A DNA stretch of 59,780 nt, filler included, from Catajapyx aquilonaris (taxonomy: Eukaryota), in the NCBI GenBank assembly GCA_000934665.2. It is 3 parts of 3 records of this genome, joined end to end, with 100 filler letters (N's around TTAATTAATTAA, not from the genome) between each part and the next. Parts side by side here need not be neighbours in the genome. Positions count along the whole stretch, not along the records: positions 1 to 19,895 come from JYFJ02006377.1; 2 more parts are not named here. One strand, 5' to 3'. Under the pieces are notes generated by a model, which worked only from the letters and a program-made list of their open reading frames with translations, was not told where the DNA came from and made no database searches. A program made the translations under genes and the position numbers. How positions within the stretch are numbered: position 1 is the stretch's first letter; each line of letters opens with the position of its first letter. This document shows, piece by piece, positions 1 through 20,027 of this stretch.

Positions 1-287
1 AGAACAACAAATTCATGTTTTCAGGGTGTGTGGAAAATGTAGCACTTTGGGCATCGACATTTGAAGGCTTCTGTATTGGGATTTCAGTAGTGTCACTTGA
101 TGACCCTTGCTTCTGGGAAGGCTGCACGAAACAGACTGGGCATTTTGTCGCGCACACTCTCATTGTCGGGCCAGTAATCAAATTCTTTGAGGTGGTAGTA
201 CAGGAAGTTCAGCCAGGTATCAAACCCCTTGGATGCTGTGCTTTTTGAAAGTCCAAATAAAAAAGCAAGATCAATGTCTTTGCTTCT

Positions 288-1270
288 TTAAGGGGGAATG
301 CAACCCTGAAGCCTTGTTTTTCTGGGTGCAACTTTGCATTTATTTTCTGGGAAACTAAAAATTCCAAATGCACAAGTTTTCTCACATTTATTACACTAAA
401 CTTACACTACTTTCATTTTACAAATGTACCCATCTCGGTGCCCCGTAAACGGGGATTATGAATGTTGCCGTTGAGGGCTGCGCAACATGCTGTGAGTCCA
501 TGGTGGGCGGGCTGCACTCTTAAGCGGTAATCTGTAATATGTGAAAATTTACATATCACTTCTCTGTAAGTGTGACTTTGCGCTGAACCTAAATCGAGAC
601 ATCTCACGTGTTCTTTTCTAAGAAATAATAGGATTTAGAAAGTCGCTACTGCAATTTGTCTATAATTTTGGCAGAAAGATGTGCATAAACCCATTTAAAA
701 GTATTTTGACCTCCAATCTCAGAGGTTCAGCGCAGAAAGACGTGTTGGGTGTCACCAGTAAAAATATCAAATCTGGTGGAACCTCCATTCTTTAGCTATG
801 CCGCCCACCAGGTTGAAATATGTCATTTGTGGGAAAATTGAGTTAAAGAAAAAAATTGAAAATTAATGGGTGGAAAAAATTTTAAGGTCAACTTACCAGT
901 CTCAATCTATGCCTGGCCCATACAAGTGCCCTTCTTCTTCCACTGCCTTGTCTTGGGCTGCCTTCCTTTGCTCCCGAAGAGCTGCCCGGCCTTCTTTGGT
1001 GGACACCAGAGCTCGTGCCTCTGCTTGGGTGACCCTCTTGACATCCCTCTCCTGACACTCAGTCTGACAAGAAGGCCCTGGTGTCACACCCATCTTCTGC
1101 TTGACTGCCATGTATATATTGCTCCCTTCATTAAACACACCGGCATCAATGTAGGCAGCAATTTCGACTGTCGTGGTGCCGCTGCGGCGGCCTCCGTCCC
1201 TAGGTAAATATGAATTACTTGCATTCCTGTAATCCAATTTCATTAAATACATGGATACCTGGGAGCACAA
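288..1270 (-). mobile_element. 3' end of a Kolobok-like (Mutator-like domain) DNA transposon: C-terminal ORF fragment plus terminus
   Basis: ORF 902-1270 ends ...EEEGHLYGPGID*, a C-terminus typical of these transposases; TTAA-GGGGGAATGCAACCC at 288 resembles a Kolobok end (TTAA target site, purine start). Confidence 0.5.
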
Positions 1271-1279
1271 TTTTATTCC

Positions 1280-3111
1280 TTAATCAAATTCTGCTTCGTG
1301 AAGCCATGCCAACATTTTCATTTTAAAGGCGCTCTTCTGCCGCTTGTCCAGTGCCTGGATTCTTGGCAGTACACTTAATAGAAACAGCTTGTCAGGGTCG
1401 TCAGGTGGTGGTGGAGCAGCAAGTCTCTGGAGGACAGCTATCTCGAGTGCCTCTGTCCTTGCCCTCTTCCTTGACGGTGGCTCGAAGTCTTCTCGCAGAC
1501 TAGATGCACCAAGAGTGCTGCTTTCACCTTCTGCTTCTCCTTCACTCCCACCTTCAACCTCCACAGTCTCCTCTTCCTCCACCTCAACTCTCAGCATGTG
1601 GCCGTCCCAGTTTCCTGATTGGCTGAAAGTGACAAAACAATCAGTTTATTGCGCCAGAAATGCAAGAGTTGCATTGCATCCAGTGTTTTCATGGCTACAT
1701 CCCTATTTTTAATACTCTGTTTGGATGGAAAGATGGACACATGTAGTCAGAAGGCAGGCTAATCTCCACAATAGGACAGCTTGAACAATTGGCTAGAAGC
1801 ATTTCATAATGGACACAACATGTAAGCCGCAACCAGTATGATGCAGTTAGTGTGAAGCAAGAGGAGTTGATTAGAGGAAAATAAAATCACCTCCGAGGCT
1901 TCGTTACTGCCTCCAAGAACTGGTGGAGTAGGCTGAACAATGGCCACTTCTTCCGTAACACAGCCTCGGAGCCACTTCGGCCATCTCCGAGCGCCTTCTT
2001 TTCCCGGACATATTTATCCATCAGGCTCTTCCACCTCGCCTTGGCTTCGGCAACTGTAAATAAAACATTTCATTAAGACCTTATCAGGGTAATGTCAATT
2101 TCTGATTCCCAATACTGCTTGATGTGAATTACCAAGGCACATCCATATAGCCTACCATGTGAAAGAAAATATTGGGATTGGGATTACTTATGAATGGAAC
2201 ATGGGTGCACACATTGAGCAGCAAGCTTTTTACTCTATTCTGATTGGTAATTGCATGGATAAATTATTATTATTACCGACCCTTCCATTTTGCTGTTCGG
2301 GTGCCATGTACATATTAATAAATTAAAAACATTTCATAGCATTTCACACAAGCTACTTGCCACAAGTAATGACTGCCATTACATATATAATGACCATGTG
2401 ATAAGCACACTCCTATGACTTTGTGAAGGGAAATTTGTGCTAAACGGTGACTGGGTAAAGTTCATATCACCACTCACGCCTGCATGCAACAATGCAGGTA
2501 CTGTACAATGTGAAGTTGTAAACTGGAAACCATTAAAACAGCATCAAATCAACTCTTAGAAATCTTGAAATAAGCTTGTAATGTTTTTTTGTTGGTAAAA
2601 AGCATTTTAAACCCTTAAAAATTGATGCTCAATGGGAAACTCAGTAGCTTGCTCAGTAATGATGCTCTTTTAATGCCGTGCGGTTTGGCCGCCATTCCTA
2701 CTGCTGCTACTCAATGGCAAGGAACTGAAGGAAGGGATGGTTGGGAGGGGTCCGCGAGTGCAATGGTGTTTGATGTAGCCCCCTAGGTCAGTGCAACCAT
2801 GCATGTGGTCTTGTGTTCCAGCAGTACGAGTATACTCCCCAGTCATGCTGTAGTCCTTGGCCAGCTTCTCCCAGTGGTGTTCTTTCACGTCGGTGTTGCG
2901 GTACTCCCGCAGCCTAATGTCCCAAATAATTGGGACACTTTGCACCACAGTCACGAAGACTTCGTCCGTAGCAGCCATCTTTTTCTTTGACAAAGGAACG
3001 GTATTTCAAGGAACACAATTATAACTTCAAGGGACACATGTACCACTTTGAAGTCACACTTACCTTACTGATCACGCATGGTGTAGTAGGTGCTTCACAA
3101 TTGACGTCCAT
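1280..3111 (-). pseudogene. Spliced MADF-BESS domain gene, probably a Harbinger/PIF accessory gene; exons 3064-3111, 2840-2984, 1891-2053, 1280-1622
   Basis: MADF motifs VQSVPIIWDIRLREYRN...HWEKLA and AKARWKSLMDKYVRE...KWPLF; BESS motif DPDKLFLLSVLPRIQAL...FKMKMLAWLHEAEF; exon phases are compatible, but the donor at 2839 reads GGGAGT instead of GTGAGT. Confidence 0.75.
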
Positions 3112-3299
3112 TGCAGGGAGAAGGAAAGGTTGGGGTCCTGGGTTTTACATATTGGGTCTCCTGACATCCACGAACTTTTCCTATAGGCTATACATTTCTA
3201 CAATGCTAAATTATTACCACACTTACTAATTACTACACCCATTTATGTACACTACATTCTACAACACTCCCCTGCACTTCACATTTTCAGTTCTACTCG

Positions 3300-3960
3300 T
3301 AGGCGGGTCGCAAATGCACGCACATTCTCAGAACTTATGCACCGTGTCTGCTAGTTGTTGGGTCAGGGTCGATAGGGCTGGCGCTGAAGTAAATTGTGTC
3401 AACAACGCTTTCTTAATCTTTTCCCAAGTGTCAATGGTTGATTCCGGAAGCGAATTTAAATACGCCCGCGCTTCACCGGCTAACTTCAACTGCAGGACTT
3501 ATATTTTTTTGCCTTCTTCTACACCTGCCAATTCCGCTGCTATTTCCATGTCGGCGATAAAATCCCTAATGTCCTGGCCGCAATTCCTTCCGCTATAACT
3601 GGCCACTGTGGTCAGCACCCCCATGTTCAGCGTCCTGATGTTTACCACCTGTGGGTCATTACCCGTTCCTGGCATGTTGAACTTTGAGTAGGATAACCCA
3701 CCCCAATTGTACCAGTAATTTTGGTCAAAAAAGTGCCCTGTCTTCCAAAATATCGCCTGATGTCTCCGTAATATGACTCCTACCTTAATCGCACCTTTCA
3801 TTGACTCAGTATAACCCTATCCTACCGACTGCTGCCATTTGTAACGGTTATTTTGGGGTGATATAGGTGTAGGAATGGGGGTGGGGATGAGGAAAAGGGG
3901 TTGGGGATGAGGGGGAGTCTCTTTGTTCCAGCCTGATCTCCCCCCCCCCTCCCCCCGTAG
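3300..3960 (-). mobile_element. Gypsy LTR retrotransposon 5' fragment: LTR end, primer-binding site and degenerate gag
   Basis: On the minus strand ...GTTACA (LTR end at 3840) is followed by AA and TGGCAGCAGTCGGTAGGAT; gag-like YSGRN...DIRDFIADMEIAAEL...*VLQLKLAGEARAYLNSLPESTIDTWEKIKKALLTQF contains an internal stop. Confidence 0.75.
3819..3837 (-). promoter_or_regulatory. Primer-binding site complementary to a tRNA-Ser 3' end
   Basis: TGGC(A)GCAGTCGGTAGGAT matches the complement of the invertebrate tRNA-Ser end ...AUCCUACCGACUGCG-CCA (recalled, not searched) with one extra base; it lies 2 nt after the LTR terminal CA. Confidence 0.7.
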
Positions 3961-4289
3961 TGGGAGGTTACATAGCTCCTACTTCATCTGGAGGGTGCCT
4001 GCCAGCATCGACCTTATCACATGCTTCACGTTGTTGCCACCAATTCGTGACAGCTGACGCGTCTGATGTAGTGGGGGAATAATAACAATGAAATACAATC
4101 CGAGCTCTTGTACCACCAACAAACTCTCCCTCCAGTCGCATTATCAGCAGGGACGATGACCCATGTTTATGGGACACATTCAACACAGGGCAAGCCCCTC
4201 CTTGCGCTGGGAATTCAACAACACTGTAACTCGTCATTGTTTCTCTGAAAAGTAAGAAACACATTCTTAGCTCAAGGCTGCAATAATCT

Positions 4290-4993
4290 GGGGCCTGTAT
4301 GATTGCATAGGCAGTTTGTGCCTGTGTCTGGACAGGTTTTCCATGGACAACTTTTTCTGCCAGTTCCTCACTACTTCCTCGGCATGTTTTGATGCGATGT
4401 GCATCCGATCCTCTCGACACACGAAATGCTCTCTCGCGCAACCAGCACCGTGAACCTTGCACCGCATCAACCAGCATTTTGAGTTTAGTTTCGTCACACG
4501 CTACATTTTGTCTGTACCACTCCGATGATTCAGCACTCTACTCAACAGGAAATATTTTGAAACTCGTTTCCCCACACATTTCGGCTCACTACACTTTGTA
4601 CCTGGTCAACACTCCGGTCTGCATGATTTTCTCCTTGGCAGTATCTTGTGCACTCTCTTGTAAATTCCTCTCCACTCCAAGAATCAATGTTCCCATGACA
4701 CCTTCTGCAGCTGCTTCATCGTCTTCTTTTTTGAGAGAATTGATGAAAGGACAGTTAATGTCAGGGAATGCTGCCAACATGGATTCGGGGAAAACTTTTT
4801 TCACGTTCACTTTTATTTTAGGTGGTCCGAAAAATGTTTCCAATAATGCTGCCTTCTTGTAGCTATGGCATTTGCTCGCTGGTAGGCCCCACGACTGGGG
4901 CTGAGAAGTGACAGATTCGGCAATTTCCTCGTTAATTGCATACGTCATGGCAGCTGCAGCAGGGCCTAATATAAGGATTTGTTCGGACTGCAC
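4290..4993 (-). pseudogene. Degenerate transposon-associated protein fragment leading into a YqaJ-like nuclease N-terminus
   Basis: SVTSQPQSWGLP resembles the motif that follows SWIM fingers; VQGSRCWLRERAFRVSRGSDAHRIKT resembles the start of a YqaJ domain; frameshifted. Confidence 0.5.
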
Positions 4994-5483
4994 ATTAGGC
5001 TCTCAAAGTCACACAGGCTTCACTGGAATATAATTGTAATAATATTAGGCAGGTTCCAAAAGGTTAAAATATTATATTTAACTCTGTCATCAGATATAAC
5101 AAACAGTACCTTTACATTTTTCTTTTTTGCATCATAAAACACACAAAACCATATCAAAAAAGACAAGGGACATTACATTTGCATTACTTTTCTTTACATT
5201 TCTTTACATTTTCCTTCACATTTTTCATTCTCAAAACATGTAGGTTGCACACGAAGAAATATAAGATATAAAGTACATGCATTATGTGACATTAAAGTGG
5301 CATCAAAGTGACAGCAGAAATTGGAAAAACGTAGCAGGAAATATATTACAGTTGCATACTTCTATTTACTCGTGTATATTACATGGATTACCCTGTTAGA
5401 ATGAGAGAATAAGTCAAAATGCCATGTAAGTTATTAGAATGAGACCTTCGATGAAGGAGGTTCTGATTCCAGTTGTTCACACG

Positions 5484-6113
5484 TCAACGATCTCGGGAAC
5501 ACATGAGCGAACCACTCTTGGTGCCTAGCCTTAGGTGCCTGACGTTTCCGTCGATAGTGTCCGCTTGCAATGATTCCCGATCAGGTGTCTTCACCAGATT
5601 ATAGAACGAGATGAGCCTCTCCACGTCGGCGCTTGATGGTGTTGCAGCCACAACTCTGGCGACCGCAATGAAGAGACTCGTCCACTGCTTGATGGATGCA
5701 AGCAGTGGCAAACATTCCGAGCACTTCCTGCCAGAAAACCGCTCATCTGCCGATGCTTCGCGATAGCTGGCCGCGAAGTCGATCAAGGAAAGGTCTGGAC
5801 ATATCTTCTGATGAGCTGCACGAAGCGCCGAATCAGAGACATCCATGTTGAATCGCTCTAGAGGTAGTAGATCGGCAAACTCCGTTGGGTCCAACCGTTC
5901 TTTCACAAAGTTTATGAGGGCATGCAGCGCGTCGTTGCGAACGGCTGTAAAACAGCGCCGGTCCGTCACAAACTTGTTGTGTGCACTGGCACGACGAGGG
6001 GGTGGCACGAAAACATTTATTCCATGCAGTGTTGCAGCTGAAGCAGCTCCATTTGGTCTATCACTGTTAAAAAGGATGGAGCCAAATGGCACCATGTAAG
6101 GGTGCCAACCCAT
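5484..6113 (-). mobile_element. hAT transposase C-terminal fragment (dimerisation domain)
   Basis: ARVVAATPSSADVERLISFYNLVKTPDRESL matches the hAT dimerisation motif. Confidence 0.75.
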
Positions 6114-6337
6114 GTCCCACCTGCAGCACCCTTAATGGAGCCGATTGTCACCCTTTTTTTGGGGTGACAATTGGCACCCTATGAGGAAGGTGGCAAAAGG
6201 GACGACAGGGGTGCCATTTGGCACCCCTTGTTGAACTTGGGCAAGGGTGCCAGTTGTCACCCAAGGGTTCCTTTTGGTTCCCTTCTGCACATTGATAAGG
6301 GTGCCAGTTGTCACCCAAGGATTCCTTTTGGTTCCCT
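6098..6337. repeat. Cluster of direct and inverted GGGTGCC/GGCACCC/GTCACCC repeats, resembling transposon subterminal repeats (possibly CACTA/CMC)
   Basis: AAGGGTGCCAGTTGTCACCCAAGG.TTCCTTTTGGTTCCCT occurs at 6243 and 6297, with shorter inverted copies upstream. Confidence 0.55.
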
Positions 6338-6673
6338 CATAAATGATTGTTCAATTTAAAAAGAGTCTGGTTTATGAATGACTAATTTGGAGGGAAATGC
6401 TTTTAAAGAATGTATAACCCTTCATAAAACATAGCAGAAAAATGCATACGTATTTTGGATTTGCAATTCGTAATTTTCAACCTATTTCTTAGATCGTCGT
6501 TTGGTTTTCCGCACTTTAATTATGTGGAATATATACCATGTAATGTAATGCCTAAAACAAGACGCTGGAAAACAAAGTTGATGGAAATTACATTTGATTG
6601 AAGTGGAAAAATGTGTTTTTTGGACCAACTTATACTTTATTAAAAAGCGTCATAACGCTCTTGGGCACATGCT

Positions 6674-7961
6674 TCACAGATTATTTTTTTTAAACACGCA
6701 AGTGTCGAAGAAAATCAATGTTTTTTTGGTACTCTGGTTGTAGGAGATCCCAAAGACCCAGTACAATGAAAACCAGAGGATTATCGCTGTAATCCCATTC
6801 TTCACTTTAAGAATTTCCACCCCATCTAGGTAGATTGTGTAGGTGCTGTCCACGTCAAAGATGGTAGTGTTAGTGGAAACCGTCAACGCCGGATAAGGCG
6901 CTGTGGGCTGCATAGTCGCCAGTACTTTTTCATTCAAGCATAGAGGGATCATCAACAAGTTGAAGAGCGCATCATTTTCTGAAATGTTGGAAAATGACTT
7001 ATGTGATAATAATCAATGGACAACACAGACTATACCATCTGTTGCTACGGTCACTTCATATGCTTGCTTTAGGGGATGTGGCCGTAACTTCAACTTGGCA
7101 CTTGATGCCAATCCAGCCCCATGCCGTCGCAGAAAATCAATGAGTCTTGAGGGTGTGATCCCGTAGATCCCGGCTTCTTCGAGCAGCTAGAATATATTCC
7201 ATGAGAAATCAGGGGTTTAGCGATATACATCTTAGGAAGAAAGGCATAATACAAACGACTGATGACATTATAAAATAGTTCATACCTGTTCCTCCATCTT
7301 CAGCGCCGGGTACTTCTGCAGTACATCTTTTACCGAGTTTTCCCGCATGAACTGGGTCCTTGAAAAGCGTGTCCTGGCCATTTTGTCGTTAACGATCTTC
7401 ATGTCAGGCACTCGAGATTGGCACTGTTCGTCATCACCTTCTCGTGATGTGCCAGGGTGCTGGCATCTTCAGCCTGAATTGCATCCTAAAATGAATTACG
7501 ATCAGAAATTGCCAACCAGTAACAACTGAAATATGCACTGCATGCAAATATGAACTGCATGCACGTATAAAAGTAGAAACAAATGTCTCACTTCTTCAGG
7601 TGCCTGATAACGAGCTTCTAGAACAAGTGGCTCGTTATCCGGCAAAGCCTCCTTCGTCTTCTTCCCCCCATACTTCTGTCCCATCACCTCCATCTCCTCA
7701 TTCGCAACCAGCTGGCAATGGCGGCTTCGAAATTTTTTGAATTTGTCTTGTAGGCTCTTGCGCCACAGTGCCTATAATAGTTTCATGGTATGAAGTACAT
7801 AGAGAGACACTCAAGTGCAAAGGATATAATGACCAACAGTGCATGATTCAAAATAGAACTTACATGTGGTTTTGCATTTAGGAATGGTTTCCCTTTCAAA
7901 TGTGGGTACCTGTCTACAAGCTTTTCACTTGCCTGTTCGTACATTCTTGCAGATGGGTAGC
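6674..7961 (-). pseudogene. Multi-exon SAMD3-like gene fragment (a family often found inside CACTA/CMC elements)
   Basis: Exons read YPSARMYEQASEKLVDRYPHLK, ALWRKSLQDKFKKFRSR, SVKDVLQKYPALK, and a C-terminal AIILWFSLYWVFGISYNQSTKKTLIFF; GT-AG introns are present. Confidence 0.6.
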
Positions 7962-8199
7962 TATGGAAGAGGTCAGTAATAGCATATGTATTTAGTTTGC
8001 TTATACTGTATAATGTCGTTCACTGAAATTATTTTGAGCAATATATTGTGCCAGCAATCTATGGCATACATGGAAATAATAGAAACTGAAGGGGTGGTCA
8101 CTACAGCTGGAAAAGCGCATACAGAGCAGTTTCTGAGCATGCAGTGTTGAAGCCTTAATGCTCACATGTCGTATCTGACCAAATCATCGAACAACGTCT

Positions 8200-9370
8200 C
8201 AATAATTTTGAGACGGCACTTCCCAAGCTTAGCAATAAAATCATGCTTTCTTAATGCCACCAGTCGGCCCATAAGCGTTTCAAGGAAGTCATCAGTTTCT
8301 TTCTTTCTTTCTTTTTTGTAATTTCTTCCAACGTTGTGTGATCAACAGATACCCAAGATTTGTAGGTGATCTTGTCGCTTCCATGCTCCTCGAATGCATC
8401 ATGGATGGCAGTCTGCAGGCTCTGCATACTGTCGCACAAAGGACAGAGTTTGCTTCCGTCTTTGTAGAGTTCATCATCACTACATTAATCGCTCGTTTTA
8501 GGTTCCCTCGAGGCCGAGCTTGAGCTCTTGCACATGGCACAGTCATTCATAAAGCAAGCAGGCTGAGGAGGAATGCATGTCATTAGGGCCAGTAGATGTT
8601 TGTATGTGTCGTATATGTGATCCGGGGTGGTCACAGGTCCGGGCAGGAATGTAGGGGGAGGGAGCAAGCAAATCAACGTCTGTACACATAGCTAGCGTTC
8701 ACAAGACTGCCTTTTATTTCCTACTCCCGCCAGGAGACAGGAGTGTATGGGTCAGTACACAGAGGGGAACAGCAGGGTTATAAATATGACAGTATGTAAC
8801 ATTGCCGGAGTAGTTCTCAATAAGATCCGAAAATGCTGGGGTAGATTTCATTTGGAAACCTTCATCAACTTCATGTTTTGGTGTAGGACACAAGTGCACA
8901 CGTTGTGAGAACCACTGGAATCGGCCAACACTACGTTCTTTGGACGCAACTCGGCGAACTTGCTGGATCCAACTTTGACAGTGGGATGCTCGTCTCGAAA
9001 ATGACTGAACGCTTCCAACACATTACACAACAGCAGTCGCTTCTGCACGAGCTCCCTTTGTCCACCAATTCGTACTGCAGCACAATCCTTCTTTCCTGGC
9101 ATAAGACGACTGATATCATCCCTTTCATAAAAAGACTTAGCAATTCCCACTGTCTTCGCATCCAGTGTCTGTCCTGGTCTTGGATTTGGCGATGAAAGCA
9201 CTCTTTTCTCTTCTTGTAGTTATTTTGCGCGCCTTGCCATGTGATAGGTCGTGCCAAATTCATTCATGATATTTCGTATGCTCCAGCTACGAGGCAACAC
9301 TGTCTTTCACTTTGTTTGTGTACAACTTTAAATTTGTCTTTCAGTTGGGACACCATTTCCTCGCCACAGT
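8200..9370 (-). mobile_element. Degenerate DNA-transposase fragment of the 'Cc8L18.2-like' type (possibly Sola)
   Basis: FYERDDISRLMPGKKD...VQKRLLLCNVLEAF..F...HP.VKVGSSKFAELRPK.VV...SGSHNVCTCVLHQNMKL, then CFMNDCAMC, ITYKSWVSVD and KHDFIAK; frameshifted. Confidence 0.6.
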
Positions 9371-9756
9371 AATGTGTGGCCCAGCTTGATTTTGGCAGTG
9401 TAATGGGACACAATATGTACTTTCTTATGGTACATAAATTTTAAAAATCGAAGATGTCTGAATTTGTCAAAAATTGGGTCAAAGGTCATAATATGTAACG
9501 CCATGGACTGAACAGAATCGTAAGTGATATTTTGACAGACTCTTCCCTTCTACCAAAGTTAAGTGCAGTGAGGTAGGGTCGCGACATGTATTTTGATAGG
9601 GGGAGTGTCCGGGAACTGATTTAGACACTACTTGGGGAAAACTGGCCCCCTACATAAGAGAACTATATTCTACTGTGTATTGCACATAAAATGAATAGGC
9701 TACTTGTGAGTTAGTTTTCAACATTTTATTAATCAGGCAAAACTGGACAGGATTTC

Positions 9757-10981
9757 TCATCGAAGTCCCACACGAGCTGCAACATTGCTTTTTTCGAACT
9801 GCCTCTGTTTGGCCGCCGGGATATCCAGATATAGTGACTTCACATACTTTGAGAGCTGCGCATACTTTGAGGGCTTCTGATTGATTCTCCTGAAAAGAAG
9901 CATGAATTACAAATTATGGGTGTGAGAGGTTAAAACAGGTTATGACTAGAGACACTGGAATTTGTTGGAATGAAAATTGAAAATTGGTGGAATGAATCAA
10001 GAAATTGTTGGTATACAAGGAAGTTGATTTCCACACTGAAAAAACCAGACGGTCTCATTGTTTGCTTTCATACGCAAACGATGACAGAATTTCCAAGTTG
10101 GTAAGTGACAAATTCGTGCGTTTATCAGAGAGCACTATGGAATATGTGGAAAAAATTCTTTCACAGTCAACATTTGACACTGGAAACCAAACTCCTCTCA
10201 GACTGCGTGTAGAAAAATCTCTTCCTGCATCGCCAGAAGGGCATCAAAGACTGACACATCTTTGCTACGGACCATGTCCAATAATTCCCTCAACCCAAGA
10301 ACAGCACCTTCTATATTGTAATTCTGCAAGCTTGGAACACTAATCTTCTCATTGATCCCTTCAGCACATCCTCTGCCAAATTCAAAGTCAGCAAGTTCTC
10401 CTTGCAAAACAGTTTTGATAATTATGCCCTTCCAAAATATCCCTAGCAGGATCACCTTCAATATTAGTTTATTCAACTTCAGCAACACCTTTCCTGCGAC
10501 TGCTCTAAGGGTGGTTTTACACAGAGTTCGTTCTGCTTGTGACATCTCCTGCTTTCAGCCACACAGTTAGAAAATGTACCTTCGTGGTTGACTGTCAGCT
10601 TTTTTTGCAGAAATGCGAGTTTTTTCCGGTATTGTAAACAAATTGTCGTAAACAGCAGAAATTGTTGGCATCTTGCCATTTATGTCCAAATTGTCGATAT
10701 GGACGTAATTCCGCTGCACCTTCAATTTGTGCTCGCCAACTGCAATCAGCTGCACTTCTAGCTGAAGGGAAAAACAAACCGGTCAAAAACAGAGTATTCA
10801 TCACTTCATAAAACTCTCCACAAAGGCATGTGCAACTCACCTTGCCACCCATGATTTTAGTGACAATATTGTTCGTCTCGAAGGTGACAGTAGCAATGAT
10901 ATCAGACTCGACGTTTGCTGCAGCCTCAGGGTACGGCCTCACATACACCGCCAGTATGTGCCCATATGGATGGAAATATTT
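9757..10981 (-). pseudogene. 3' part of a spliced gene with an RRM-like segment; exons 10841-10981, 10580-10761, 9757-9889
   Basis: KYFHPYGHILAVYV...IATVTFE is RRM-like; GT-AG junctions keep the frame through to TGA at 9757; AATAAA on the minus strand at 9725-9730. Confidence 0.45.
10070..10545 (-). mobile_element. hAT-type (CGGBP1-like) transposase C-terminal fragment nested in an intron
   Basis: After a frameshift the ORF reads LRGVWFPVSNVDCERIFSTYSIVLSDKRTNLSLTNLE, a hAT dimerisation motif. Confidence 0.65.
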
Positions 10982-11709
10982 CTGCAAATGTTAACATGGG
11001 ATGAACCAAGGTTTTTAAAACAACAAGCTGCATGACTTGTGTGTCCATATACAGTATTATTTTATGCAGCTACAAGTTCACAATTCTCGCACTACCAGTT
11101 AGTTCACTAGTAACACGGGGCATCAACAGGTGAGCATATGTCATACAATTGAGTAATGAAAAGCATATTTATGAGTGAAAAATGGAGCTAAATACAATCT
11201 ATGAAAAATGGCTGTGCAAATTACCATTACTTCCTCTTCCCCCCATTCACTTGGGACCCACACCTTAATTGCCTTACGGGCTATTTCTTGGTGAGTCGGA
11301 CTGGGAGTTCGAAGACTTCGCTCCTGAACTGAAATGGAAACAACAGTTACAAATAACTGCCACCACACTTTCCCTAGGCACTGATGCAATTGATCAGCTG
11401 ACAGAATGACCACTTGTTTCGCAACAATAAGATCATGCCAGCTGAATTGTCGGATTTCCATTATGACATTTTCCAGTGTCTCTAGTTATGACTCCTTTTT
11501 GACAAAAGAAAGGTATGCAATGACGTCACAGTTTGTGTGTTACTTTACTTAATAAATTGGGGGAAAAAAGATACTGAAGATTTTCATTTGACATAGTAAA
11601 TTAGCCTCGAATATCTGCTAACGTTCCCACCAGAACATTGTCCACGTGTGTCAGTGGTGCCGATGCTGGCGGTGCCAGCTTCCTTCTCTTTGGCTTAGGT
11701 TCAGTGTCA

Positions 11710-12010
11710 TGTGAACCAGGCTAGGTAGAGTGGGGGGCTCTATGTCAAATAGATCCATCATTCCTCGGGCAAGGTCCTTCCGCAAAGCACTTGCTGAAAT
11801 ATTCTTGTCTATCATTGTACCTCCTATCTCCTCTCGCTGTTTTGAAGTCATGGGCCGTTTCCTAACGCATGAGTGGTCGTCTCCTATGTCCCACACGTGG
11901 ACCTCAAGATCTAGACCATACATTCCAGGATCACTGGGAGGGGGATTAGGGCAGGTGGCAACAAGTTCGGCCCCACAGCCACAAGTACCGCGAATTTTGA
12001 GATAGTGCTG
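11710..12010 (-). mobile_element. NOF-FB/MULE-like protein fragment
   Basis: FRGTCGCGAEL...DHSCVRKRPMTSKQRE...SASALRKDLARGMMDLFDIEPPTLP resembles the NOF N-terminal region. Confidence 0.5.
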
Positions 12011-12099
12011 TGCGTCATCTCCTCTTGCGACATGATGTCCTTCAAAGCTCCAGGAGCATGCGAACTTTTTTTTCTTCCATATTTCAGCAGCGAGGATAT

Positions 12100-12865
12100 T
12101 GCTCCAAATACCTTCTTCGAGAACAGTGTACTTTCTTGTATGCTCGTGCCTTCCAAGTGTTTCAAGGTGTTGATGCCATCTTCTGCCCCCAAGCCCAGGT
12201 ACAACTGATCCAGGGCAATGAGTCTTTCTGGATTGCCTGTTTCTACTTGTAAGATGTCGATGTTCTTCACATATGACAGCGGCATGAAGTTACTGCACAG
12301 GTGTTTCAAAAGCCGCTCTACTTCAGGCTTCAGTCTGTGAAGTAGAGGGCTTTCAGATTGGAACATCAGATTAAAATCATTCCAGTACATATGACATGAA
12401 GTTTAAATACAACTCGGTGAATTTATTTTCCATGGTCTGCAGCATTTCAGATAAAGTGATGGAAGGATCGTCTAGGACATATTCTCGAAGGTACTCCTTC
12501 AGAGGTGTGTACTGTTCCCAGACTCTGTCTACGCAAGCTTTCAATGACAACCACCTAGTTGTGGCCGGAGAAAGAATTTTGTGGACTGTCACGTGAAAAA
12601 ACTCTTGGAATTCTTGAAAGCGCTTCTGGCGTGAATAACTCCTATTGAAGTGAGCCCCAAAATTCCTCAATAAATCTTCCACAGAATGTGGTAGCTTCTT
12701 GCAGGCCGCGGACGCTGCGAGATGTATCATGTGACACGAACATTTCACATATGCGATGTCTGGAATATCTCCTTTCAAAAGGGCAAAGACAGAATGGTGT
12801 CGTCCAGCCATCACATTGGTGGTGTCGGAAGAAAATTTTTCCATAACGACCAATGCCTCCAGCAA
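12100..12865 (-). mobile_element. hAT transposase core fragment, frameshifted
   Basis: FSSDTTNVMAG, KCSCHMIHLAAS, F.RS..RQ..F.EFQ, TRWLSL..CV.RV.EQY, FNLMFQSE. Confidence 0.85.
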
Positions 12866-12899
12866 CCATAATCTTAAGGCTGAATTTGGGTTTCTGTAT

Positions 12900-13113
12900 T
12901 GGGGAAATGGTTGAGGGATTGATTGCTGGTGCGTATCCTGCAGTTCTGCTTGTTTGGTGAGGATTGCAGTTCTACTGGCGACTCATCTGAAAACATTATG
13001 TGACTTCTCTTGATCCTGCCTGCTGCGGAATCATCAGCAAATCCTTGGTCGACAAGCCTGGTGCTAAACTTGATTCGGTCTTGAATGTTTTTAGCTGACA
13101 ACATTGGTTTCAC
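12900..13113 (-). mobile_element. Tc1/mariner transposase fragment
   Basis: KPMLSAKNIQDRIKF...IMFSDES...PNKQNCRI covers the first catalytic Asp. Confidence 0.7.
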
Positions 13114-13114
13114 A

Positions 13115-14933
13115 CAGCGCCGGCCCTAGAGCAAATGGCGCCCTGGGCGAGGGTTCAAGGAGCGCCCCCCCCCCCCACACACACACACACACACACGCAC
13201 ACAAAATAAAAACAACAAACCAAAAAAACCTCATTCCCNCACACACACACACGCACACAAAATAAAAACAACAAACCAAAAAAACCTCATTCCCACTGTC
13301 GCAAATATATTACAAACACTGTCTAAAGTATCATCTGTTTTTAGTATACGGAATTTCTGGTACAGGGAAATGTGACGTAAAAAAATTAACAAGGAAAAAT
13401 TGGGATAAAATAATACCCATTGATTTGGTTTGTGTGTATCACCACTGCACCTGAAAATGGAGCCTTCCGCTCTTTTAATTTAGCTGTGACAAAGCTTCTG
13501 AAAAGTCAATTTCGTGAGCAATTTCACTTTCTATGAAGAGCACTGCAAGTGAGGTCAGTCTGTCGTCAGCCATGGTTGATCGGAGATAAGTTTTAATTAG
13601 CTTTAACTTCGAAAAGCTGCGCTCTCCACTTGCTACTGTTACCGGCATAGTCATGAGGATTCGTAACGCCCCACCCACACGTTAGGGAATACGTCAATTG
13701 TATTAGAGTCTTTCAGGAAACTTTCTCCTGTGGCACAATTTTACACAGTTGCTTAAGTTCCTCTCATATCTCGACTCCGCCTACATCAGAATGCTCTCCA
13801 TCGGTAACAGCGCGGTGTAAGTCCATGCAGTGCGCCACGGTGTTGTCCGGAAGCACCTTGGCGTTGTAAAGAAATCCCCAAGTGTCCATGTGAGAAAACA
13901 GTTGGTCGAACCGCTCCTGCACGGACACCCGGGTAATGTCCACAAGAGGATTCAAAAAATCTCTCCTGAATACCTCCTCAGGACTGGTTGATAGCTCGCC
14001 CCCAGCACCCTCGTACTGGAACATGATCATCTTAGGGCGCTTCCTCGGTAGATTGGCGAACACAGGGTCAACGTCCATGCTTTCGGCGATCTCCTTCGCA
14101 ACCGGAACTGCACTGTCCCTGTAGGTGTTGATAAACTACAAACAGTTTTGCAGGAGTGATGTTGCCGTTGAAATATCCACTGTCTCACTCTGCATCGCCT
14201 TGCGTACAATATTCACTTGGAACAATATGTCATACCATACTGCTAGTGAAATTAAGAACTTGAAGTCGGTCAGTTGGTTTCCTAAGCACCCTGCTTCGTG
14301 TCAACTCCAGGATCAGCTTGTTGCATTTCAGAAATTTGTTGAAGGGCTTCGTAAACCTCCTCCTTTTGATAACGAACTGTCTTAACACTATCAATACGGC
14401 TCTCCCAGCGAGTAGCGCTCAATGGTTTTACTGTTAGACTTGGCACATTGTCCTTCAGGATTTGCCACCGTTGAACAGAGGCGGAAAACAAAACGTAAAT
14501 TCGCTGCAATACACCAAACAGAGTGACCGATGATGTCGTCGAAGACGCTGCATCAGAGACTACTAGGTTGAGAGAATGGCAGCCACAGGGTACGAAGGAA
14601 GCTCTAGGGTTCATTCCGAGCACTCGAGCCTGTGCGCCTTTTTTCCCCCTTCATGTTGGCACCATTATCGTACCCCTGGCGACGTCAGTCTTCAAACTTG
14701 ATGTTATTTTCTTTCAATGCTTGAAGTAGAAGTTCTGCAAGTCCTTCGCCTGATGATTCCGAAACAGACCTAAAGCCTAGAAAATGTTCTTTCACTTGGA
14801 TCAAAGTGCTATCCGTATCCACAAATCTAACAGTGAATGACATCTTCTCAGAGTGACTTATATCAGGGGTGCAGTCTAGAATTACAAAGTAATACTTCGC
14901 AAATCTGAGCTCGGATAGAATCTTATCCAACAC
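13115..14933 (-). mobile_element. hAT (ZMYM1-like) transposon, 3' two-thirds with its terminal repeat
   Basis: YFVILDCTPDISHSE, QGYDNGANM, VPCGCHSLNLV, SATRWESR, PVTVASGERSFSKLKLIKTYLRSTM; terminus CAGCGCCGGCCC at 13115; several frameshifts. Confidence 0.9.
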
Positions 14934-15089
14934 TTTATCGGGTAAATGTGCAGAAAGCTACATTCTCCCAGAATATCGGGTATATGTGCATAGATATATC
15001 GATATTTGGGATATATCCCAAGAACGATTTTCCAACGATGTAATAGTTTACTATCGTTACAATCCGAATTCACTTACCATTGATTTTGA

Positions 15090-15515
15090 TTACTCGGGGC
15101 CTGGATACAACCTCCCTGCCGCCTGGAAAAAGTGGTGAAGTCTTTCTTTATGGTTGGGGAACGCTCTTTTAAAATAAAATTCGGCATGGTAACCCGCGAA
15201 GTGTGTTTCCCTTCGACCATATCTGCAAATTTAGAATCCAAATTTTTTAAAAAAATTACACGCTACCGTAGTTATTTTTAACATATATTTTACGCACCTT
15301 GGTATTTTTGATCGGACTTCTCGCCAGGTTCGCTCGATATTCTGGGTGTGAGCCCCAGTATCAGGATCGACGAAATTGTAAGTGTGGTTAACTGTTAGAT
15401 GCTTAAATCCCTTGTTTTTCAAACAATTGTGTGATTTCCTACAATCACTATAAATTATGCTGCCTGGTTTCACATATTTTTTGATAGCCTTCAATAGTGT
15501 CCCTGCTGATCTATT
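15090..15515 (-). mobile_element. Merlin (ISXO2/IS1595-like) transposase C-terminal fragment with an intron; exons 15298-15515 and 15090-15222
   Basis: NRSAGTLL..I..YVKPGSIIYSD...HLTVNH..NFVDPDTGAHTQNIERTW, spliced in frame to YGRRETHFAGYHAEFYFKR...LYPGPE*. Confidence 0.85.
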
Positions 15516-15517
15516 AT

Positions 15518-15686
15518 GTGGCTTGTGATCCGTGATAATAGTCACATGGCGTTCGTATATGTATGCATGGAACCGTCGGACACCGAAAAGAATCGCGAGT
15601 GCCTCCTTGTCGATCTGAGCCAGGTTACGTTCAGCCGACGTCATTACTCGCGAGGCGAAAGCAACAGGTCGTTCCTTCCCGTCCAT
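15518..15686 (-). mobile_element. Gypsy pol RNase H fragment
   Basis: DGKERPVAFASRVMTSAERNLAQIDKEALAILFGVRRFHAYIY...ITDHKP. Confidence 0.9.
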
Positions 15687-15846
15687 AAATTGTGGTGTTC
15701 GTCCATTCCCATAACGTGTCTGCCTTCAACAGCTCTCGGAGTGGCTGCACTTCATCCGACAGGTGAGGTATGTACCTCGACAAGTAGTTCACCATCTCGA
15801 GGAAGCCCCCTCGGTGTGGGTTCCTGTCCGTGGTGAGGGGACCACC

Positions 15847-16539
15847 CTACTGGGGATAGGTAATGTTAAAATAATGTTTAAAATAAAGGAGTTGTAGCTT
15901 TGGTATCAATTCCCGTAGGAAAAGATCATCACGTTCTACGCTAATAAGGACGCTGCCAAATGGAGAATATACATACAATGCACACTTCCTCAGTCCGGTT
16001 ACGTACAGACTCTCCTGCACCTGAGTGTAATAGGTATGAGTTTTAATCGATTGAAAACCTTGATCACCCCTTTTCAGGTACTCAACAACTGGAATATTAT
16101 CTGAGGATATGACAGGGCAATCCTTGGCTCGGATTGGGCATTTGATTTCAAGTAACTGTAGCTCGCCCTGTGACTCATAACACCCATCTGGTGAGAAGCA
16201 CAGCCATGGTTGTTCCAACATTACTAACACGCCACAAAGGTATACCCTGGACTTAGTAACATGCTCAAATTCACACCGAGCCACAGACTCGTGTTTCAGG
16301 CCATACCTTATGGCTTCCGAGCTGATATGCCTATGACTAATCAGAGATCTAGCAAGATTATCGTGGCTGTCCCTCCTCGTCCAAATGCGGCGAGTCTTGG
16401 TGGCTGAAATGCGTTTGTCCCTAACCTCCACCCATTCAGTACAGCTTCTTTGAGACACAGTATTTTTAAATATGCTGTCGCACTCACTTTCAGACACTTC
16501 TACTTTGCACTCATACAATTTTTTTTGTTCGTCATTCAA
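15847..16539 (-). CDS. YqaJ-like (lambda exonuclease family) recombinase domain, transposon-associated, probably partial
   Basis: W...R..RISAT, YGLKHE..A, PWLCFSPDG, LEIKCP and YYTQVQ motifs in an uninterrupted 230-codon ORF. Confidence 0.8.
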   Translation of the reverse strand: MNDEQKKLYECKVEVSESECDSIFKNTVSQRSCTEWVEVRDKRISATKTRRIWTRRDSHDNLARSLISHRHISSEAIRYGLKHESVARCEFEHVTKSRVYLCGVLVMLEQPWLCFSPDGCYESQGELQLLEIKCPIRAKDCPVISSDNIPVVEYLKRGDQGFQSIKTHTYYTQVQESLYVTGLRKCALYVYSPFGSVLISVERDDLFLRELIPKLQLLYFKHYFNITYPQ

Positions 16540-16819
16540 GCCATCACTAGCGGGATGTACTCACCTCCTGAGCTTCATACCTGACTCTGTTGGGATGGTT
16601 TTATACATAGCATAGATATCATGCCTTCTCTTATTCTGAACCTGGCTCAAAACTTGCATTGCCCTTCTCTTCACTTTTGCACACTGCGTCTTGGATCAAT
16701 GCACTTAACATAACACTGCAAACTTGCTCACTCTCATTTTATTTTCGTTGCCAGCTTTCCGTCCGGTCCAGTTCATTCAGTTTTTCACCACCACGTGGCG
16801 CAAGTGAAAAGGAATAGCA

Positions 16820-16885
16820 TCATCCTGCATTCCATACTACCCGGCGAACAACGCTGTTCGCCGGGTAGTATGGAATGCAGGATGA
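16820..16885. repeat. Perfect 31-bp inverted repeat with a 4-nt loop
   Basis: TCATCCTGCATTCCATACTACCCGGCGAACA-ACGC-TGTTCGCCGGGTAGTATGGAATGCAGGATGA. Confidence 0.95.
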
Positions 16886-17326
16886 ATCTGTATCCGGAGA
16901 GTTCGACCCCGTGACAATTTCGCTACCGGCAGTTCCGCTGGTGACGCCCGGGGAATCGTTTGGAATGCTGCTCCTATTGACATTAATCCCTGATCTAGGA
17001 ATGTCGTCATATTCCACACCAAGATAGGACTTGTGACAACTGCAGGTATCTTTTCACCTTCAGTGGTCACATGTACAAGAGTCCTCACCCAAACAACTGA
17101 CTTCCACCAAAAAAACAACAATGTGACACCTTTTCCAACTCCAATTTTCAAATATGCACCTTCAAACCAATAATAATTCAGGTATCATAGGCGCACAATT
17201 GAGAATCCCATTCCCACCGATGCACACATACATGGTGTAATGTCATATTTACTAAGTTGCAATCTAGGGAGTATGTGACCCACAAGTTTGTCAGTTACTG
17301 TGATAAATTTTATTCTGGTCGCTTAC

Positions 17327-18505
17327 CTTCCAGAGGGTGATGACTCTCTCGCTTGTGCTATCGGATATGATGCCTGGAAGGTGGCTTGGTAACTTATCCA
17401 GCAGTGTGTCACGGCCCTTTCCTGTAGGTGAAAAATAAATTTGAGTTCACATGCTCCACAAAGGACTTTCAACACCATCTCAAAGTTTCTTACCTGACAA
17501 CGTGCTCCACTCCGTTTTGCCCTTCAGCCCAGAAGTGGTAAAAAATCTGATGTGGATGCCACATTTTCCAATAGGACCGGCAAGTTTCTGTAGTACTGTT
17601 TCATCCACTGAAGATAATTTCTTCGTTTCATTGTCCTTGTCCATTTCTTCGCATTCAAAGACAAGGTTCTCTATCAGACGGTCCACGATCCTCGTCTTCA
17701 TGTGGAGTGTGTCCACCACAATAGCCTGCGGCTCCACATGGAAAATTGGCAAATGTTTCACACCAGACGTCTCAGTTACATAGTAATTTTTCATATTGGA
17801 GAGACTTCTTTTGTGCGGAACAGTCGCACTTGGGCAGGTCATCCACAGGCAATCACTTGTCACAGTACAGTACATACACGGATGCTTGCTATTGGCACTT
17901 TTTAAACCAGCCACAATCAGGAGAAATTTCATGTCCCCTCCGAGTACTATTTTCATCTTCACAAACCGGTCGACAGGATTCCTTAACCAAACTCCTCCAT
18001 CTGCAATTATTTTGTTCACTTCTTCTGCCAATAAAGTGGTGGCTTCTTTCACTGCTGAATAATTTTCACTGTGTTCCATGATCATGATAGTTTTGTGTGT
18101 TTTCACAGATTGCATGTTTGTTGAGCCGTCTAAAACAAAATTCACTGCTGTCCAGTTCAGTCCATAGTTGTTCATTCTGACACCATCACCTTCCAGTTTC
18201 AGAGTAATGGTTTCTTCCCTTCCGACCATGTTCTTGTGGGCACATAGCTCTTCCACCGAATCGACAACAATCTTCATCACTGAATCTACAGTTGCTCCTG
18301 CAACTCTGCCCCTTAACAATGAGATATTATATTATTGGTCCACATATTCCTGACACGATTGCAGCAAGGACCACTTTGGAATTTGGGACATGGAGTTCAA
18401 TGATTTCCAGGCATTTTGGCTTATGTGGCAGCTCTGCTGAATGTGCAAGAAGATGAAAACTAGATTCTTTTGATCGGGCGTCAATGAGGCAAAATCAGAG
18501 GTTCC
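17327..18505 (-). mobile_element. RAG1-like (Transib/Chapaev-related) transposase fragment with an intron at 17422-17493
   Basis: LKLEGDG, SENY, LGGDMKFL..VAGL.SANSKHPCMYC, VVDTLHM..RI.DRL, WSTLSG; upstream frameshift near 18330. Confidence 0.65.
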
Positions 18506-18539
18506 TGCTATATACAAATTGGGCTTCCCCTTATAGACA

Positions 18540-19080
18540 CGGTCCCCTTTGCTGGGTTTAGAGCATAAGTAGCATTTCCCCCTCTAGGCCGGCCACCAGG
18601 GCCGTGGCTACCGTAGAGGAACGGCGGGCCACCCGTGTCATCAGTCCGAAGACTATGCCCCGGAAGGTGTGGGCCGGGTGCAGACTGGACGGGGTGACGT
18701 AGGCCCGGAGGGCCGTCGGCTTTGTGTAGTGCGCTAGCTGGCTTTTTCCAGAAAGAGTCGGGCGTCCAAATAAGAGACGTCCGTGGCAGCTCCCTCATTG
18801 GTCACCGTGAGACGTCGGCGACTTCGGACCAGGGAGATTTATTCCTCCACGGTGCCTGGGTGTGCCACCAGAAGCACGTCATCTAGGTTCCGGATCAGGG
18901 TGTGGACGGCGGGACCCTGGGCTTCCAGGAAGTCCGCGTCAACCTTCGCTAGGTAGACATCCGCTAGTAACGGGCTGCAGCTGCTTCCCATTTTCACCCC
19001 ACAGAGCTGCTGGAACAGCCGGTCCCCAAGCCAGAAGTAGCCGGTGTAACGGGCGAAACGTACCCCGGGCGAAATGTACC
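18540..19080 (-). mobile_element. Penelope-like reverse transcriptase fragment
   Basis: FQQLCGVKMGSSCSPLLADVYL...IRNLDDVL, then VSYLD, YTKPT and SLHPAHTFRGIVFG; GC-rich relative to its neighbours. Confidence 0.75.
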
Positions 19081-19995: not shown

Positions 19996-20027
19996 GGGAT
20001 AGGAAAATCCCGCCTCTGCATAACTAA

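What the first reader, a model, noticed from the sequence alone, without database searches (positions are those of the whole stretch)
288..19080. Unistrand archive of transposon fragments: candidate flamenco-like piRNA locus built mainly from DNA transposons
Seen: 18 of 18 identifiable fragments, mostly 0.2-1.8 kb and from many unrelated families (hAT x4, Tc1/mariner, Merlin, RAG1-like, Kolobok-like, NOF-like, Sola-like, Gypsy x2, Penelope, YqaJ x2, MADF-BESS, SAMD3-like, RRM-like), are coded on the minus strand and packed nearly end to end. If orientations were independent the chance is 2 x 0.5^18, about 8e-6. Known: unistrand piRNA clusters such as Drosophila flamenco carry transposon pieces antisense to one long transcript, but flamenco is mostly Gypsy LTR elements. 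Inference: a plus-strand transcript here would be antisense to all of these families, making the locus a CRISPR-array-like memory aimed mainly at DNA transposases and their accessory genes.
Basis: partly seen in the sequence, partly recalled or inferred. Interest (0 to 1): 0.9.

Follow-up and report, generated by a model that had tools for sequence, protein, structure and literature searches.

The report
One-strand transposon graveyard, piRNA role untested
A 20-kb contig of an arthropod-like genome is filled with broken transposon genes that all point the same way, the layout of a locus that makes transposon-silencing small RNAs, but no RNA data could be brought to show that it does.

Summary
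The strand bias is real, but smaller than claimed. The window is three separate contigs joined by artificial N44-TTAATTAATTAA-N44 linkers. The finding covers the whole first contig (1-19895).

- **Pfam test, both strands:** 7 of 133 minus-strand ORFs pass a curated cut-off and 0 of 147 plus-strand ORFs do.
- **Units:** with homology searches, a splice and a target-site duplication I count 13 units, all minus (2 x 0.5^13 = 2.4e-4). Nine are well supported (0.004). I could not reproduce 18 independent fragments (8e-6).
- **Families:** most units are DNA-transposon remnants: PIF/Harbinger with MADF-BESS, hAT, Merlin, a RAG1-like lead and two unnamed transposase-like families. Two short Gypsy pieces and one RT piece complete the set.
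- **Origin:** DNA-level insertion. One hAT element has an 8-bp target duplication and one fragment keeps its intron.
- **Copy number:** varies 17 to 280 along the contig, so this is not one composite repeat.
- **RNA:** no RNA run holds the locus, so the plus-strand piRNA precursor stays untested.

The scan noted the same layout on at least six other pieces of this genome. Same-orientation transposon clusters are already described in Drosophila and Aedes. At best this is a new member of a known kind.

The parts
2..287 (-). PIF/Harbinger transposase N-terminus (HTH_Tnp_4; start of DDE_Tnp_4), cut by the window start
   Evidence: HTH_Tnp_4 E 4.7e-8 (33 bits, cut-off 27) in 96-287; DDE_Tnp_4 E 0.0049 in 2-208. 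Multi-copy DNA depth 100-160.
1283..3005 (-). MADF...BESS coding remnant in three ORF pieces (2673-3005, 1890-2069, 1283-1645). Probably the Myb-like second gene of the same Harbinger element (inference).
   Evidence: MADF E 5.4e-6, MADF/Myb E 0.0015-0.0035, BESS E 1.7e-8. Same multi-copy depth class as 2-287.
3331..3816 (-). Gypsy-type gag fragment
   Evidence: Retrotrans_gag E 1.8e-5, 25.3 bits (cut-off 24.1) in 3331-3498. The extension to 3816 is inferred from the adjoining open frame 3502-3816.
5461..6101 (-). C-terminal ~190 residues of a ~700-1000 aa transposase-like family with weak hAT affinity
   Evidence: 185 relatives at E<=0.001, best 4.2e-47; 8 of 8 long relatives match only here, minus strand, with their residues ~480-750. 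DUF4371 in 4 of 27 relatives (best E 0.001).
7016..7468 (-). Two exons of an unnamed multi-copy gene family, with a retained 99-nt GT..AG intron at 7187-7285
   Evidence: an X5 contig joins 7186 to 7286 (CT..AC on plus). GT..AG on minus, and both exons are in one frame across the joint. No Pfam hit.
8228..9359 (-). Middle third (residues ~116-425) of a ~780 aa 'Cc8L18.2-like' protein family found in sponge, whitefly, tunicate and sea-urchin records
   Evidence: 63 relatives, best E 2e-41; 6 of 6 tested match only here, minus strand. DNA depth up to 260, with loose ends at 8607 and 9392-9613.
9947..11484 (-). Non-autonomous hAT-type element, 1538 bp, nested in an older repeat. The strand comes from a weak coding remnant.
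   Evidence: 8-bp duplication GTTATGAC at 9939-9946 and 11485-11492, with terminal inverted repeats TAGAGACACTGGAA; inverted repeat I1. DNA contigs join 9925 to 11489 without it. Dimer_Tnp_hAT E 0.0076 at 10058-10243.
11654..12982 (-). hAT-like transposase core remnant (copy B)
   Evidence: Atlas FAM200-GTF2IRD2-like 0.93-0.94 (lead only). BLASTP E 0.002 to hAT copy A at the C-x-C-H stretch. No Pfam hit. Exact single-copy DNA contig 11456-13143.
13478..14957 (-). hAT transposase remnant (copy A) in four frame-shifted ORF pieces
   Evidence: Dimer_Tnp_hAT E 3.4e-10 (40 bits, cut-off 21.4) at 13478-13681; DUF4371 E 0.0058 at 14688-14957. Exact single-copy DNA contig 13394-14973.
15234..15725 (-). 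One open frame that joins a Gypsy RNase H piece (residues 15-70) directly to a Merlin/IS1595 DDE piece (residues 69-141)
   Evidence: RT_RNaseH E 2.9e-18, DDE_Tnp_IS1595 E 3e-10. DNA contig 14944-15654 bridges the junction without a difference.
15850..16560 (-). YqaJ-type exonuclease domain, whole domain open but with no start codon
   Evidence: YqaJ E 3.2e-14, profile 1-149 of 150. Translation.
17483..18331 (-). RAG1/Transib-like transposase fragment (lead)
   Evidence: Atlas 0.97 with 202 of 256 shared features to RAG1_RNase_H/ZnC2/ZnH2 clusters, recognition 2223 (below 2300). No Pfam or PDB sequence hit.
18842..19165 (-). Reverse-transcriptase fragment, family not resolved
   Evidence: RVT_1 E 0.0017 (18.5 bits, below cut-off 29.6). 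DNA depth 200-280 and an opposite-strand joint at 19080/19148 in other copies.
19896..19995 (.). Artificial linker N44-TTAATTAATTAA-N44 that ends the contig; a second one lies at 39841-39940

Best explanation
The contig is a real, strand-coherent transposon graveyard. At least 13 truncated or nested remnants of unrelated mobile-element families, mostly cut-and-paste DNA transposons, were inserted as DNA and all kept in one orientation. The most likely reason is that the stretch lies inside a long one-directional transcription unit that retains only antisense insertions. The best candidate for that unit is a unistrand piRNA source locus read on the plus strand, whose transcript would be cut into antisense piRNAs.

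Shown: the orientation bias, the mixed families, insertion at the DNA level, and the uneven copy number.

Inferred: any transcription, its direction, and any small RNAs.
For: - **Orientation:** 7 of 133 minus ORFs against 0 of 147 plus ORFs pass Pfam cut-offs. tblastn of relatives hits the minus strand only. A GT..AG in-frame intron reads on minus. ORFs of 100 aa or more run 9 plus to 25 minus, p 0.009, with no such bias in the two neighbouring contigs.
- **Unrelated families, truncated at both ends:** one fragment is the middle third of a ~780 aa protein and another is the last quarter of a ~760-800 aa one.
- **Nesting:** a hAT element with an 8-bp target duplication sits inside an older repeat whose uninterrupted form exists in the DNA contigs.
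- **Not one composite repeat:** depth runs from 17-25 (11456-16600) to 200-280 (18593-19895).
- **Recurrence:** six other pieces of the same genome carry notes of the same layout (unchecked AI notes).
[quoted passage not shown] Flam-like clusters show the same bias (PMC10643416, passages).
Against: - There is no RNA evidence of any kind for this locus.
- AATAAA is not depleted on the proposed transcript strand: 13 on plus against 15 on minus.
- The part 11456-16600 has no other copy at 90% likeness or more in the DNA contigs. piRNAs from it would have no close target in this genome.
- The only splice seen is on the minus strand, sense to the fragments, though it may come from another copy.
- The contig is 19.9 kb with both ends inside the array, so no promoter, boundary or flanking gene can be seen.
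- The strict unit count gives only p 0.004, and this window was picked from a very large scan.
- In one crustacean the majority of predicted piRNA clusters were bidirectional (bioRxiv 10.1101/2025.05.30.656998, passages).
Confidence: 0.4

Rival explanations
1. The contig lies in a long intron, or in a long non-coding unit, of an ordinary host gene read on the plus strand. Sense-oriented insertions were removed because they bring terminators and splice sites, leaving antisense ones. No piRNAs are involved.
For: Antisense orientation bias of transposons in introns is established in mammals (PMC3088655, passages; PMC3517506 and PMC1794541, abstract starts in the listing). No plus-strand exon is needed within 20 kb in a large genome.
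Against: The passages read describe that bias particularly for LINEs and LTR elements, and that study left DNA transposons out of its analysis. That the bias is partial rather than total is my recollection, not something a call showed. Here 13 of 13 units agree and most are DNA transposons. No host exon or domain was found on the plus strand: 0 of 147 ORFs above a Pfam cut-off.
Confidence: 0.22
2. Chance plus non-independence. This is an ordinary pile of decayed transposons whose few truly independent insertions happen to agree, picked out because a very large number of windows were read.
For: The well-supported independent units number 9, which gives p 0.004. Harbinger with MADF-BESS, and the four hAT ORF pieces, each count once.
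Against: With the four weaker units it is 13 of 13 (p 2.4e-4). The long-ORF asymmetry is independent of naming (p 0.009) and is absent in the two control contigs. At least six other pieces of this genome were noted with the same layout, some with about 23 fragments.
Confidence: 0.15
3. The unit is read on the minus strand, sense to the fragments. It would be a transposon-derived long transcript or a cluster that gives sense piRNAs.
For: The only splice observed, a 99-nt GT..AG intron skipped in frame, is on the minus strand.
Against: That contig is 95-99% alike and lies in a segment with about five-fold DNA depth, so it may come from another copy. X5's kind is not on record. A sense transcript gives no selective reason for a uniform orientation.
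Confidence: 0.1
4. Orientation is set by something other than transcription, for example an insertion or retention bias tied to the direction of replication across the region.
For: None direct. It would account for many coherent arrays in one genome without RNA.
Against: I know of no such bias described for this range of eukaryotic superfamilies (recalled; no search was run for it).
Confidence: 0.08
5. Assembly or library artefact: concatenated cDNA, or a chimeric scaffold.
For: The window itself is a concatenation of contigs. There is a single N at 13239 inside a CA-rich repeat.
Against: - There are no poly(A) or poly(T) runs of 9 or more and no repeated adapter in 1-19895.
- One fragment keeps its intron.
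- A target-site duplication marks a DNA insertion.
- DNA contigs match exactly across key junctions, for example 14944-15654 and 11456-13143, though they are probably from the sample the assembly came from.
- Mis-joins would randomise orientation, not align it.
Confidence: 0.05

Closest known systems
Drosophila flamenco and flam-like unistrand piRNA clusters (van Lopik et al. 2023, PMC10643416; passages read)
   Same: Fragments of many transposons inserted in one orientation, opposite to the inferred transcript. Truncated and nested copies.
   Different: Flam-like clusters span 227-1085 kb, are enriched in LTR elements, and their bias is driven by Gypsy elements. Here 19.9 kb are visible, 2 of 13 units are short Gypsy pieces and most are DNA transposons. 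No small RNA, promoter or synteny evidence exists.
Aedes aegypti piRNA clusters (Arensburger et al. 2011, PMC3259105; passages read)
   Same: A large, transposon-rich arthropod genome. [quoted passage not shown]
   Different: Those clusters were defined from small-RNA reads. In that species only about 1% of piRNAs mapped to DNA transposons. Here the RNA is missing and DNA transposons dominate.
Antisense bias of transposons in mammalian introns (Zhang et al. 2011, PMC3088655; passages read)
   Same: Uniform orientation kept by selection against sense-oriented insertions in a transcribed region.
   Different: The passages describe it particularly for LINEs and LTR elements, and DNA transposons were left out of that analysis. 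Here the agreement is total, across DNA transposons, and no host exon is seen.

Membership tests
Unistrand piRNA cluster | Remnants of several transposon families lie predominantly in one orientation | tested here: met
   13 of 13 units on minus. 7 of 133 minus ORFs against 0 of 147 plus ORFs above Pfam cut-offs.
Unistrand piRNA cluster | Dense 24-32 nt, 1U-biased small RNAs from one strand, antisense to the transposons | not testable with these tools
   No RNA holder listed.
Unistrand piRNA cluster | A long single-strand precursor from a defined promoter | not testable with these tools
   The array runs into both contig ends, with a linker at 19896. Contigs cannot show strand or ends.
Unistrand piRNA cluster | Content matches transposon families still present in the genome (possible targets) | tested here: inconclusive
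   depth is multi-copy at 90% likeness or more in 1-3300, 6000-9900 and 18593-19895, but single-copy in 11456-16600.
flamenco-like cluster in the strict sense (van Lopik criteria) | Enrichment of LTR/Gypsy elements that carry the strand bias | tested here: not met
   Only two short Gypsy pieces (gag 3331-3816, RNase H within 15234-15725) among 13 units. Criterion from PMC10643416 passages.
flamenco-like cluster in the strict sense (van Lopik criteria) | Size of hundreds of kb | tested here: inconclusive
   The contig is 19.9 kb and the array is cut at both ends.
hAT superfamily, non-autonomous element (9947-11484) | 8-bp target-site duplication and short terminal inverted repeats | tested here: met
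   GTTATGAC on both sides; TAGAGACACTGGAA / TTCCAGTGTCTCTA. That 8 bp is the hAT size is recalled.
hAT superfamily, non-autonomous element (9947-11484) | An uninterrupted form of the target exists | tested here: met
   DNA contigs in X1-X3 join 9925 to 11489 with 25 other letters between. This is a diverged copy of the flank, not a clean allele.
Host-gene intron | Flanking exons of one gene on the opposite strand to the transposon remnants | not testable with these tools
   No whole genome is held. The contig ends inside the array.

The most novel reading that the evidence does not exclude
This contig is one of many strand-coherent arrays in this arthropod-like genome. Together they form a set of unistrand piRNA sources whose archive is dominated by cut-and-paste DNA transposons and their accessory genes, not by Gypsy-type retroviruses. 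That would show the one-strand trap working against a class of elements it is not known to specialise in.
Probability: 0.28. Interest if true: 0.55.

Novelty: new member of a known kind. Interest (0 to 1): 0.3.

Why it matters
If small RNAs confirm it, this locus and its look-alikes on other pieces of the genome would extend the one-strand trap model from Gypsy-type retroviruses of flies to DNA transposons in a non-model arthropod. They would also give a sequence-only way to find such loci. As it stands it is a reasonable, untested candidate of a kind already described in flies and mosquitoes. Its practical use is as a named target: the single-copy part 11456-18550 is where small-RNA reads can be mapped uniquely.

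Tried and rejected
**RNA data**
- The look-up of sequencing runs listed no RNA holder.
- X5 (kind not on record) has depth in only 6 of 30 bins, all in multi-copy segments, with 7 contigs laid, 6 of them under 99% alike. I draw nothing on expression from this.

**Concatenated-cDNA or adapter idea**
- Prompted by the intronless Zwilch ORF and the same-strand genes in the second contig.
- Rejected: no poly(A)/poly(T) runs of 9 or more in 1-19895, no repeated adapter, a retained intron and a target duplication.

**One composite repeat or internal duplication**
- Rejected by uneven depth.
- blastn of the contig against all three contigs found only the 16820-16885 palindrome.

**Naming attempts that gave nothing**
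- 3971-4537(-) and its opposite-strand ORF 4311-4859(+): no relatives among longer proteins. This was also my attempt to find a plus-strand fragment.
- Pfam at E<=5 on 28 unexplained ORFs: nothing usable.
- PDB sequence searches of 17483-18331, 12380-12982 and profile A1: no relevant hit.

**Other scans**
- Rfam and tRNA scans of the whole window: no match.
- The bacterial promoter/terminator scan does not apply to an animal genome.
- No whole genome is held, so no genome-wide strand statistic or search for intact donors was possible.
- Scan index by sequence and by relatives: no look-alike windows.
- CpG observed/expected is 0.65 against 0.70 and 0.76 in the other contigs: not distinctive.


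Full report
**What the window is.** The 59780-base window is not one stretch of chromosome. N44-TTAATTAATTAA-N44 linkers at 19896-19995 and 39841-39940 join three pieces of about 19.9 kb: A = 1-19895, B = 19996-39840, C = 39941-59780. The finding (288-19080) is therefore essentially one whole contig, and what lies to its right is unrelated. No whole genome is held for this window. Earlier notes of the scan describe the genome as arthropod-like.

**Check of the observation: Pfam on both strands.** I translated every stop-to-stop ORF on both strands and scanned them against Pfam in the same way.
- ORFs of 60 aa or more that start at or before 20000: 12 of 70 minus-strand ORFs hit at E<=0.01, against 1 of 60 plus-strand ORFs. 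The plus hit is a 16.5-bit Lactococcin match below its cut-off.
- Six minus ORFs pass curated cut-offs: HTH_Tnp_4 (96-287), BESS (1283-1645), MADF (2673-3005), Dimer_Tnp_hAT (13478-13681), RT_RNaseH with DDE_Tnp_IS1595 (15234-15725) and YqaJ (15850-16560).
- ORFs of 40-59 aa: I scanned 150 of 153, dropping three plus-strand ORFs at 19364-19739. Minus gave 1 of 63 (Retrotrans_gag, 3331-3498, above cut-off). Plus gave 2 of 87, both below cut-off.
- Long open frames, without any naming, show the same asymmetry: 9 plus against 25 minus at 100 aa or more (p 0.009), and 1 against 8 at 150 aa or more. Pieces B and C give 16/14 and 9/8.

**Further fragments.**
- ORF 8851-9219(-) has 63 relatives (best E 2e-41) in a ~780 aa family without a Pfam domain. 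One source calls it 'Cc8L18.2-like', and it occurs in sponge, whitefly, tunicate and sea-urchin records. tblastn of 6 of these places residues ~116-425 at 8228-9359, minus strand only.
- ORF 5487-6131(-) has 185 relatives (best 4.2e-47). Eight long ones match only 5461-6101, minus strand, with their C-terminal ~190 residues. The family has weak hAT affinity: DUF4371 in 4 of 27 members, best E 0.001.
- ORF 17483-18331(-) resembles RAG1 core clusters by language-model features (0.97, 202 of 256 features, recognition below the usual bar). It has no Pfam or PDB sequence hit, so it remains a lead.
- ORF 11914-12402(-) resembles FAM200-GTF2IRD2-like clusters (0.93-0.94). ORF 12380-12982 shares the C-x-C-H stretch with the Pfam-supported hAT copy (E 0.002).
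- The largest unexplained stretch, 3971-5002, has long ORFs on both strands. Neither 3971-4537(-) nor 4311-4859(+) has relatives among longer proteins. This was my attempt to find a plus-strand fragment, and it found none.

**How many independent units.**
- Harbinger and MADF-BESS share one depth class, and their order fits a two-gene Harbinger element, so I count them as one element (inference).
- One hAT copy is spread over four ORF pieces.
- I count 13 units, all minus, covering 11444 of 19895 bases (58%). Nine of them are well supported. The chance of full agreement is 2.4e-4 for 13 units and 0.004 for 9, not 8e-6, and this is before allowing for the size of the scan.
- Tc1/mariner, Sola, Kolobok, NOF, RRM and a second YqaJ found no support in any call.

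**How the array was built.** Contigs of three DNA runs of one sample (X1-X3, probably the sample the assembly came from) cover all 30 bins.
- Depth is single-copy (17-25) with exact long contigs in 11456-16600, for example 11456-13143, 13394-14973 and 14944-15654. The last of these bridges the Gypsy/Merlin junction.
- Depth is 45-68 in 16601-17928, 70-160 in 1-3300, 85-260 in 6000-9900 and 200-280 in 18593-19895.
- The segments therefore belong to families of very different copy number and are not one composite repeat.
- blastn of the contig against all three pieces finds only a 31-nt palindrome at 16820-16885.
- The stretch 9947-11484 is a hAT-type non-autonomous element. It has perfect 14-nt terminal inverted repeats and an 8-bp duplication GTTATGAC on both sides. 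DNA contigs join 9925 to 11489 without it, so it inserted into an older repeat.
- A contig of run X5 (kind not on record) skips 7187-7285. On the minus strand this is a GT..AG intron of 99 nt, and the two flanking frames join in phase. The copy in this contig keeps the intron.
- There are no poly(A) or poly(T) runs of 9 or more in the contig.
- These points argue for insertion as DNA followed by truncation and nesting, and against a cDNA or adapter artefact.

**What it most likely is.** Total agreement of orientation among unrelated families needs a directional process. The known one is a long one-way transcript in which only antisense insertions persist.
- A unistrand piRNA source fits best. 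[quoted passage not shown] Flam-like clusters show the same bias (PMC10643416, passages).
- The scan noted the same layout on at least six other pieces of this genome (e1-7683629, e1-7683656, e1-7506408, e1-7596252, e1-7682800, e1-7683721, unchecked). That raises my prior that such arrays are a real feature here.
- Against it:
  - No RNA evidence could be obtained.
  - AATAAA is not depleted on the plus strand: 13 on plus against 15 on minus.
  - The part 11456-16600 has no copy at 90% likeness or more elsewhere in the DNA contigs.
  - The only splice seen is on the minus strand.
- I give the piRNA reading 0.40, a host-gene intron or other long transcript 0.22, chance with non-independence 0.15, a minus-strand unit 0.10, another orientation-setting process 0.08, and artefact 0.05.

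**Comparison with what is known.** The locus works like, or at least looks like, a unistrand cluster.
- It is not flamenco-like in the strict sense. In Drosophila the bias of those clusters is carried by Gypsy elements and the loci span 227-1085 kb. Here two short Gypsy pieces stand among 13 units and only 19.9 kb can be seen.
- In Anopheles and Aedes, DNA transposons are abundant in the genome but give few piRNAs (PMC4662822, passages; PMC3259105). A cluster dominated by DNA transposons would therefore be a modest novelty.
- In one crustacean most predicted clusters were bidirectional (bioRxiv 10.1101/2025.05.30.656998, passages).
- I did not see the supplements of any of these papers. Their cluster tables might list comparable loci.

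**Verdict.** The interpretation cannot be decided with the data in reach. If real, this is a new member of a known kind. Interest is 0.3.

Noticed in passing
window 19896-19995 and 39841-39940: Artificial linkers (44 N, TTAATTAATTAA, 44 N) join three separate contigs of about 19.9 kb. Any feature or statistic that crosses these points is meaningless.
   Followed up: yes
window 20447-25469 and 32458-39700 (+): The second contig carries only plus-strand host genes: two C2H2 zinc-finger ORFs (499 and 306 aa), a Zwilch ORF of 637 aa open without any intron and only 278 bp after the second finger gene, an ankyrin ORF and several fn3 ORFs in different frames.
   Followed up: partly
window 15234-15725 (-): A single 164-codon open frame runs from a Gypsy RNase H piece straight into a Merlin/IS1595 DDE piece with no gap and no stop. 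The junction is confirmed by an exact DNA contig. Whether this is chance (1 in 3 for the frame) or a template-switch or deletion product was not pursued.
   Followed up: partly
window 7016-7468 (-): A 99-nt GT..AG intron at 7187-7285 is skipped, in frame, in a contig of run X5. It belongs to an unnamed multi-copy gene family with no Pfam domain.
   Followed up: partly
window 16820-16885: Perfect palindrome: two 31-nt arms, 100% complementary, 4 nt apart, in single-copy DNA between the YqaJ and RAG1-like fragments. Unexplained.
   Followed up: no
window 8228-9359 (-): Fragment of a ~780 aa protein family without any Pfam domain ('Cc8L18.2-like'). It is present in sponge, whitefly, tunicate and sea-urchin records, mostly on ~3-kb contigs. 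It looks like a widespread unclassified mobile-element protein.
   Followed up: partly
window 19080-19170: DNA contigs at depth ~180 join 19080 to 19148 on opposite strands. Other copies of this RT-bearing repeat therefore carry an inverted arrangement.
   Followed up: no
window 13165-13294: A 56-bp unit duplicated in tandem, with a (CA)n run and a single N at 13239. This is probably a closed scaffold gap.
   Followed up: no
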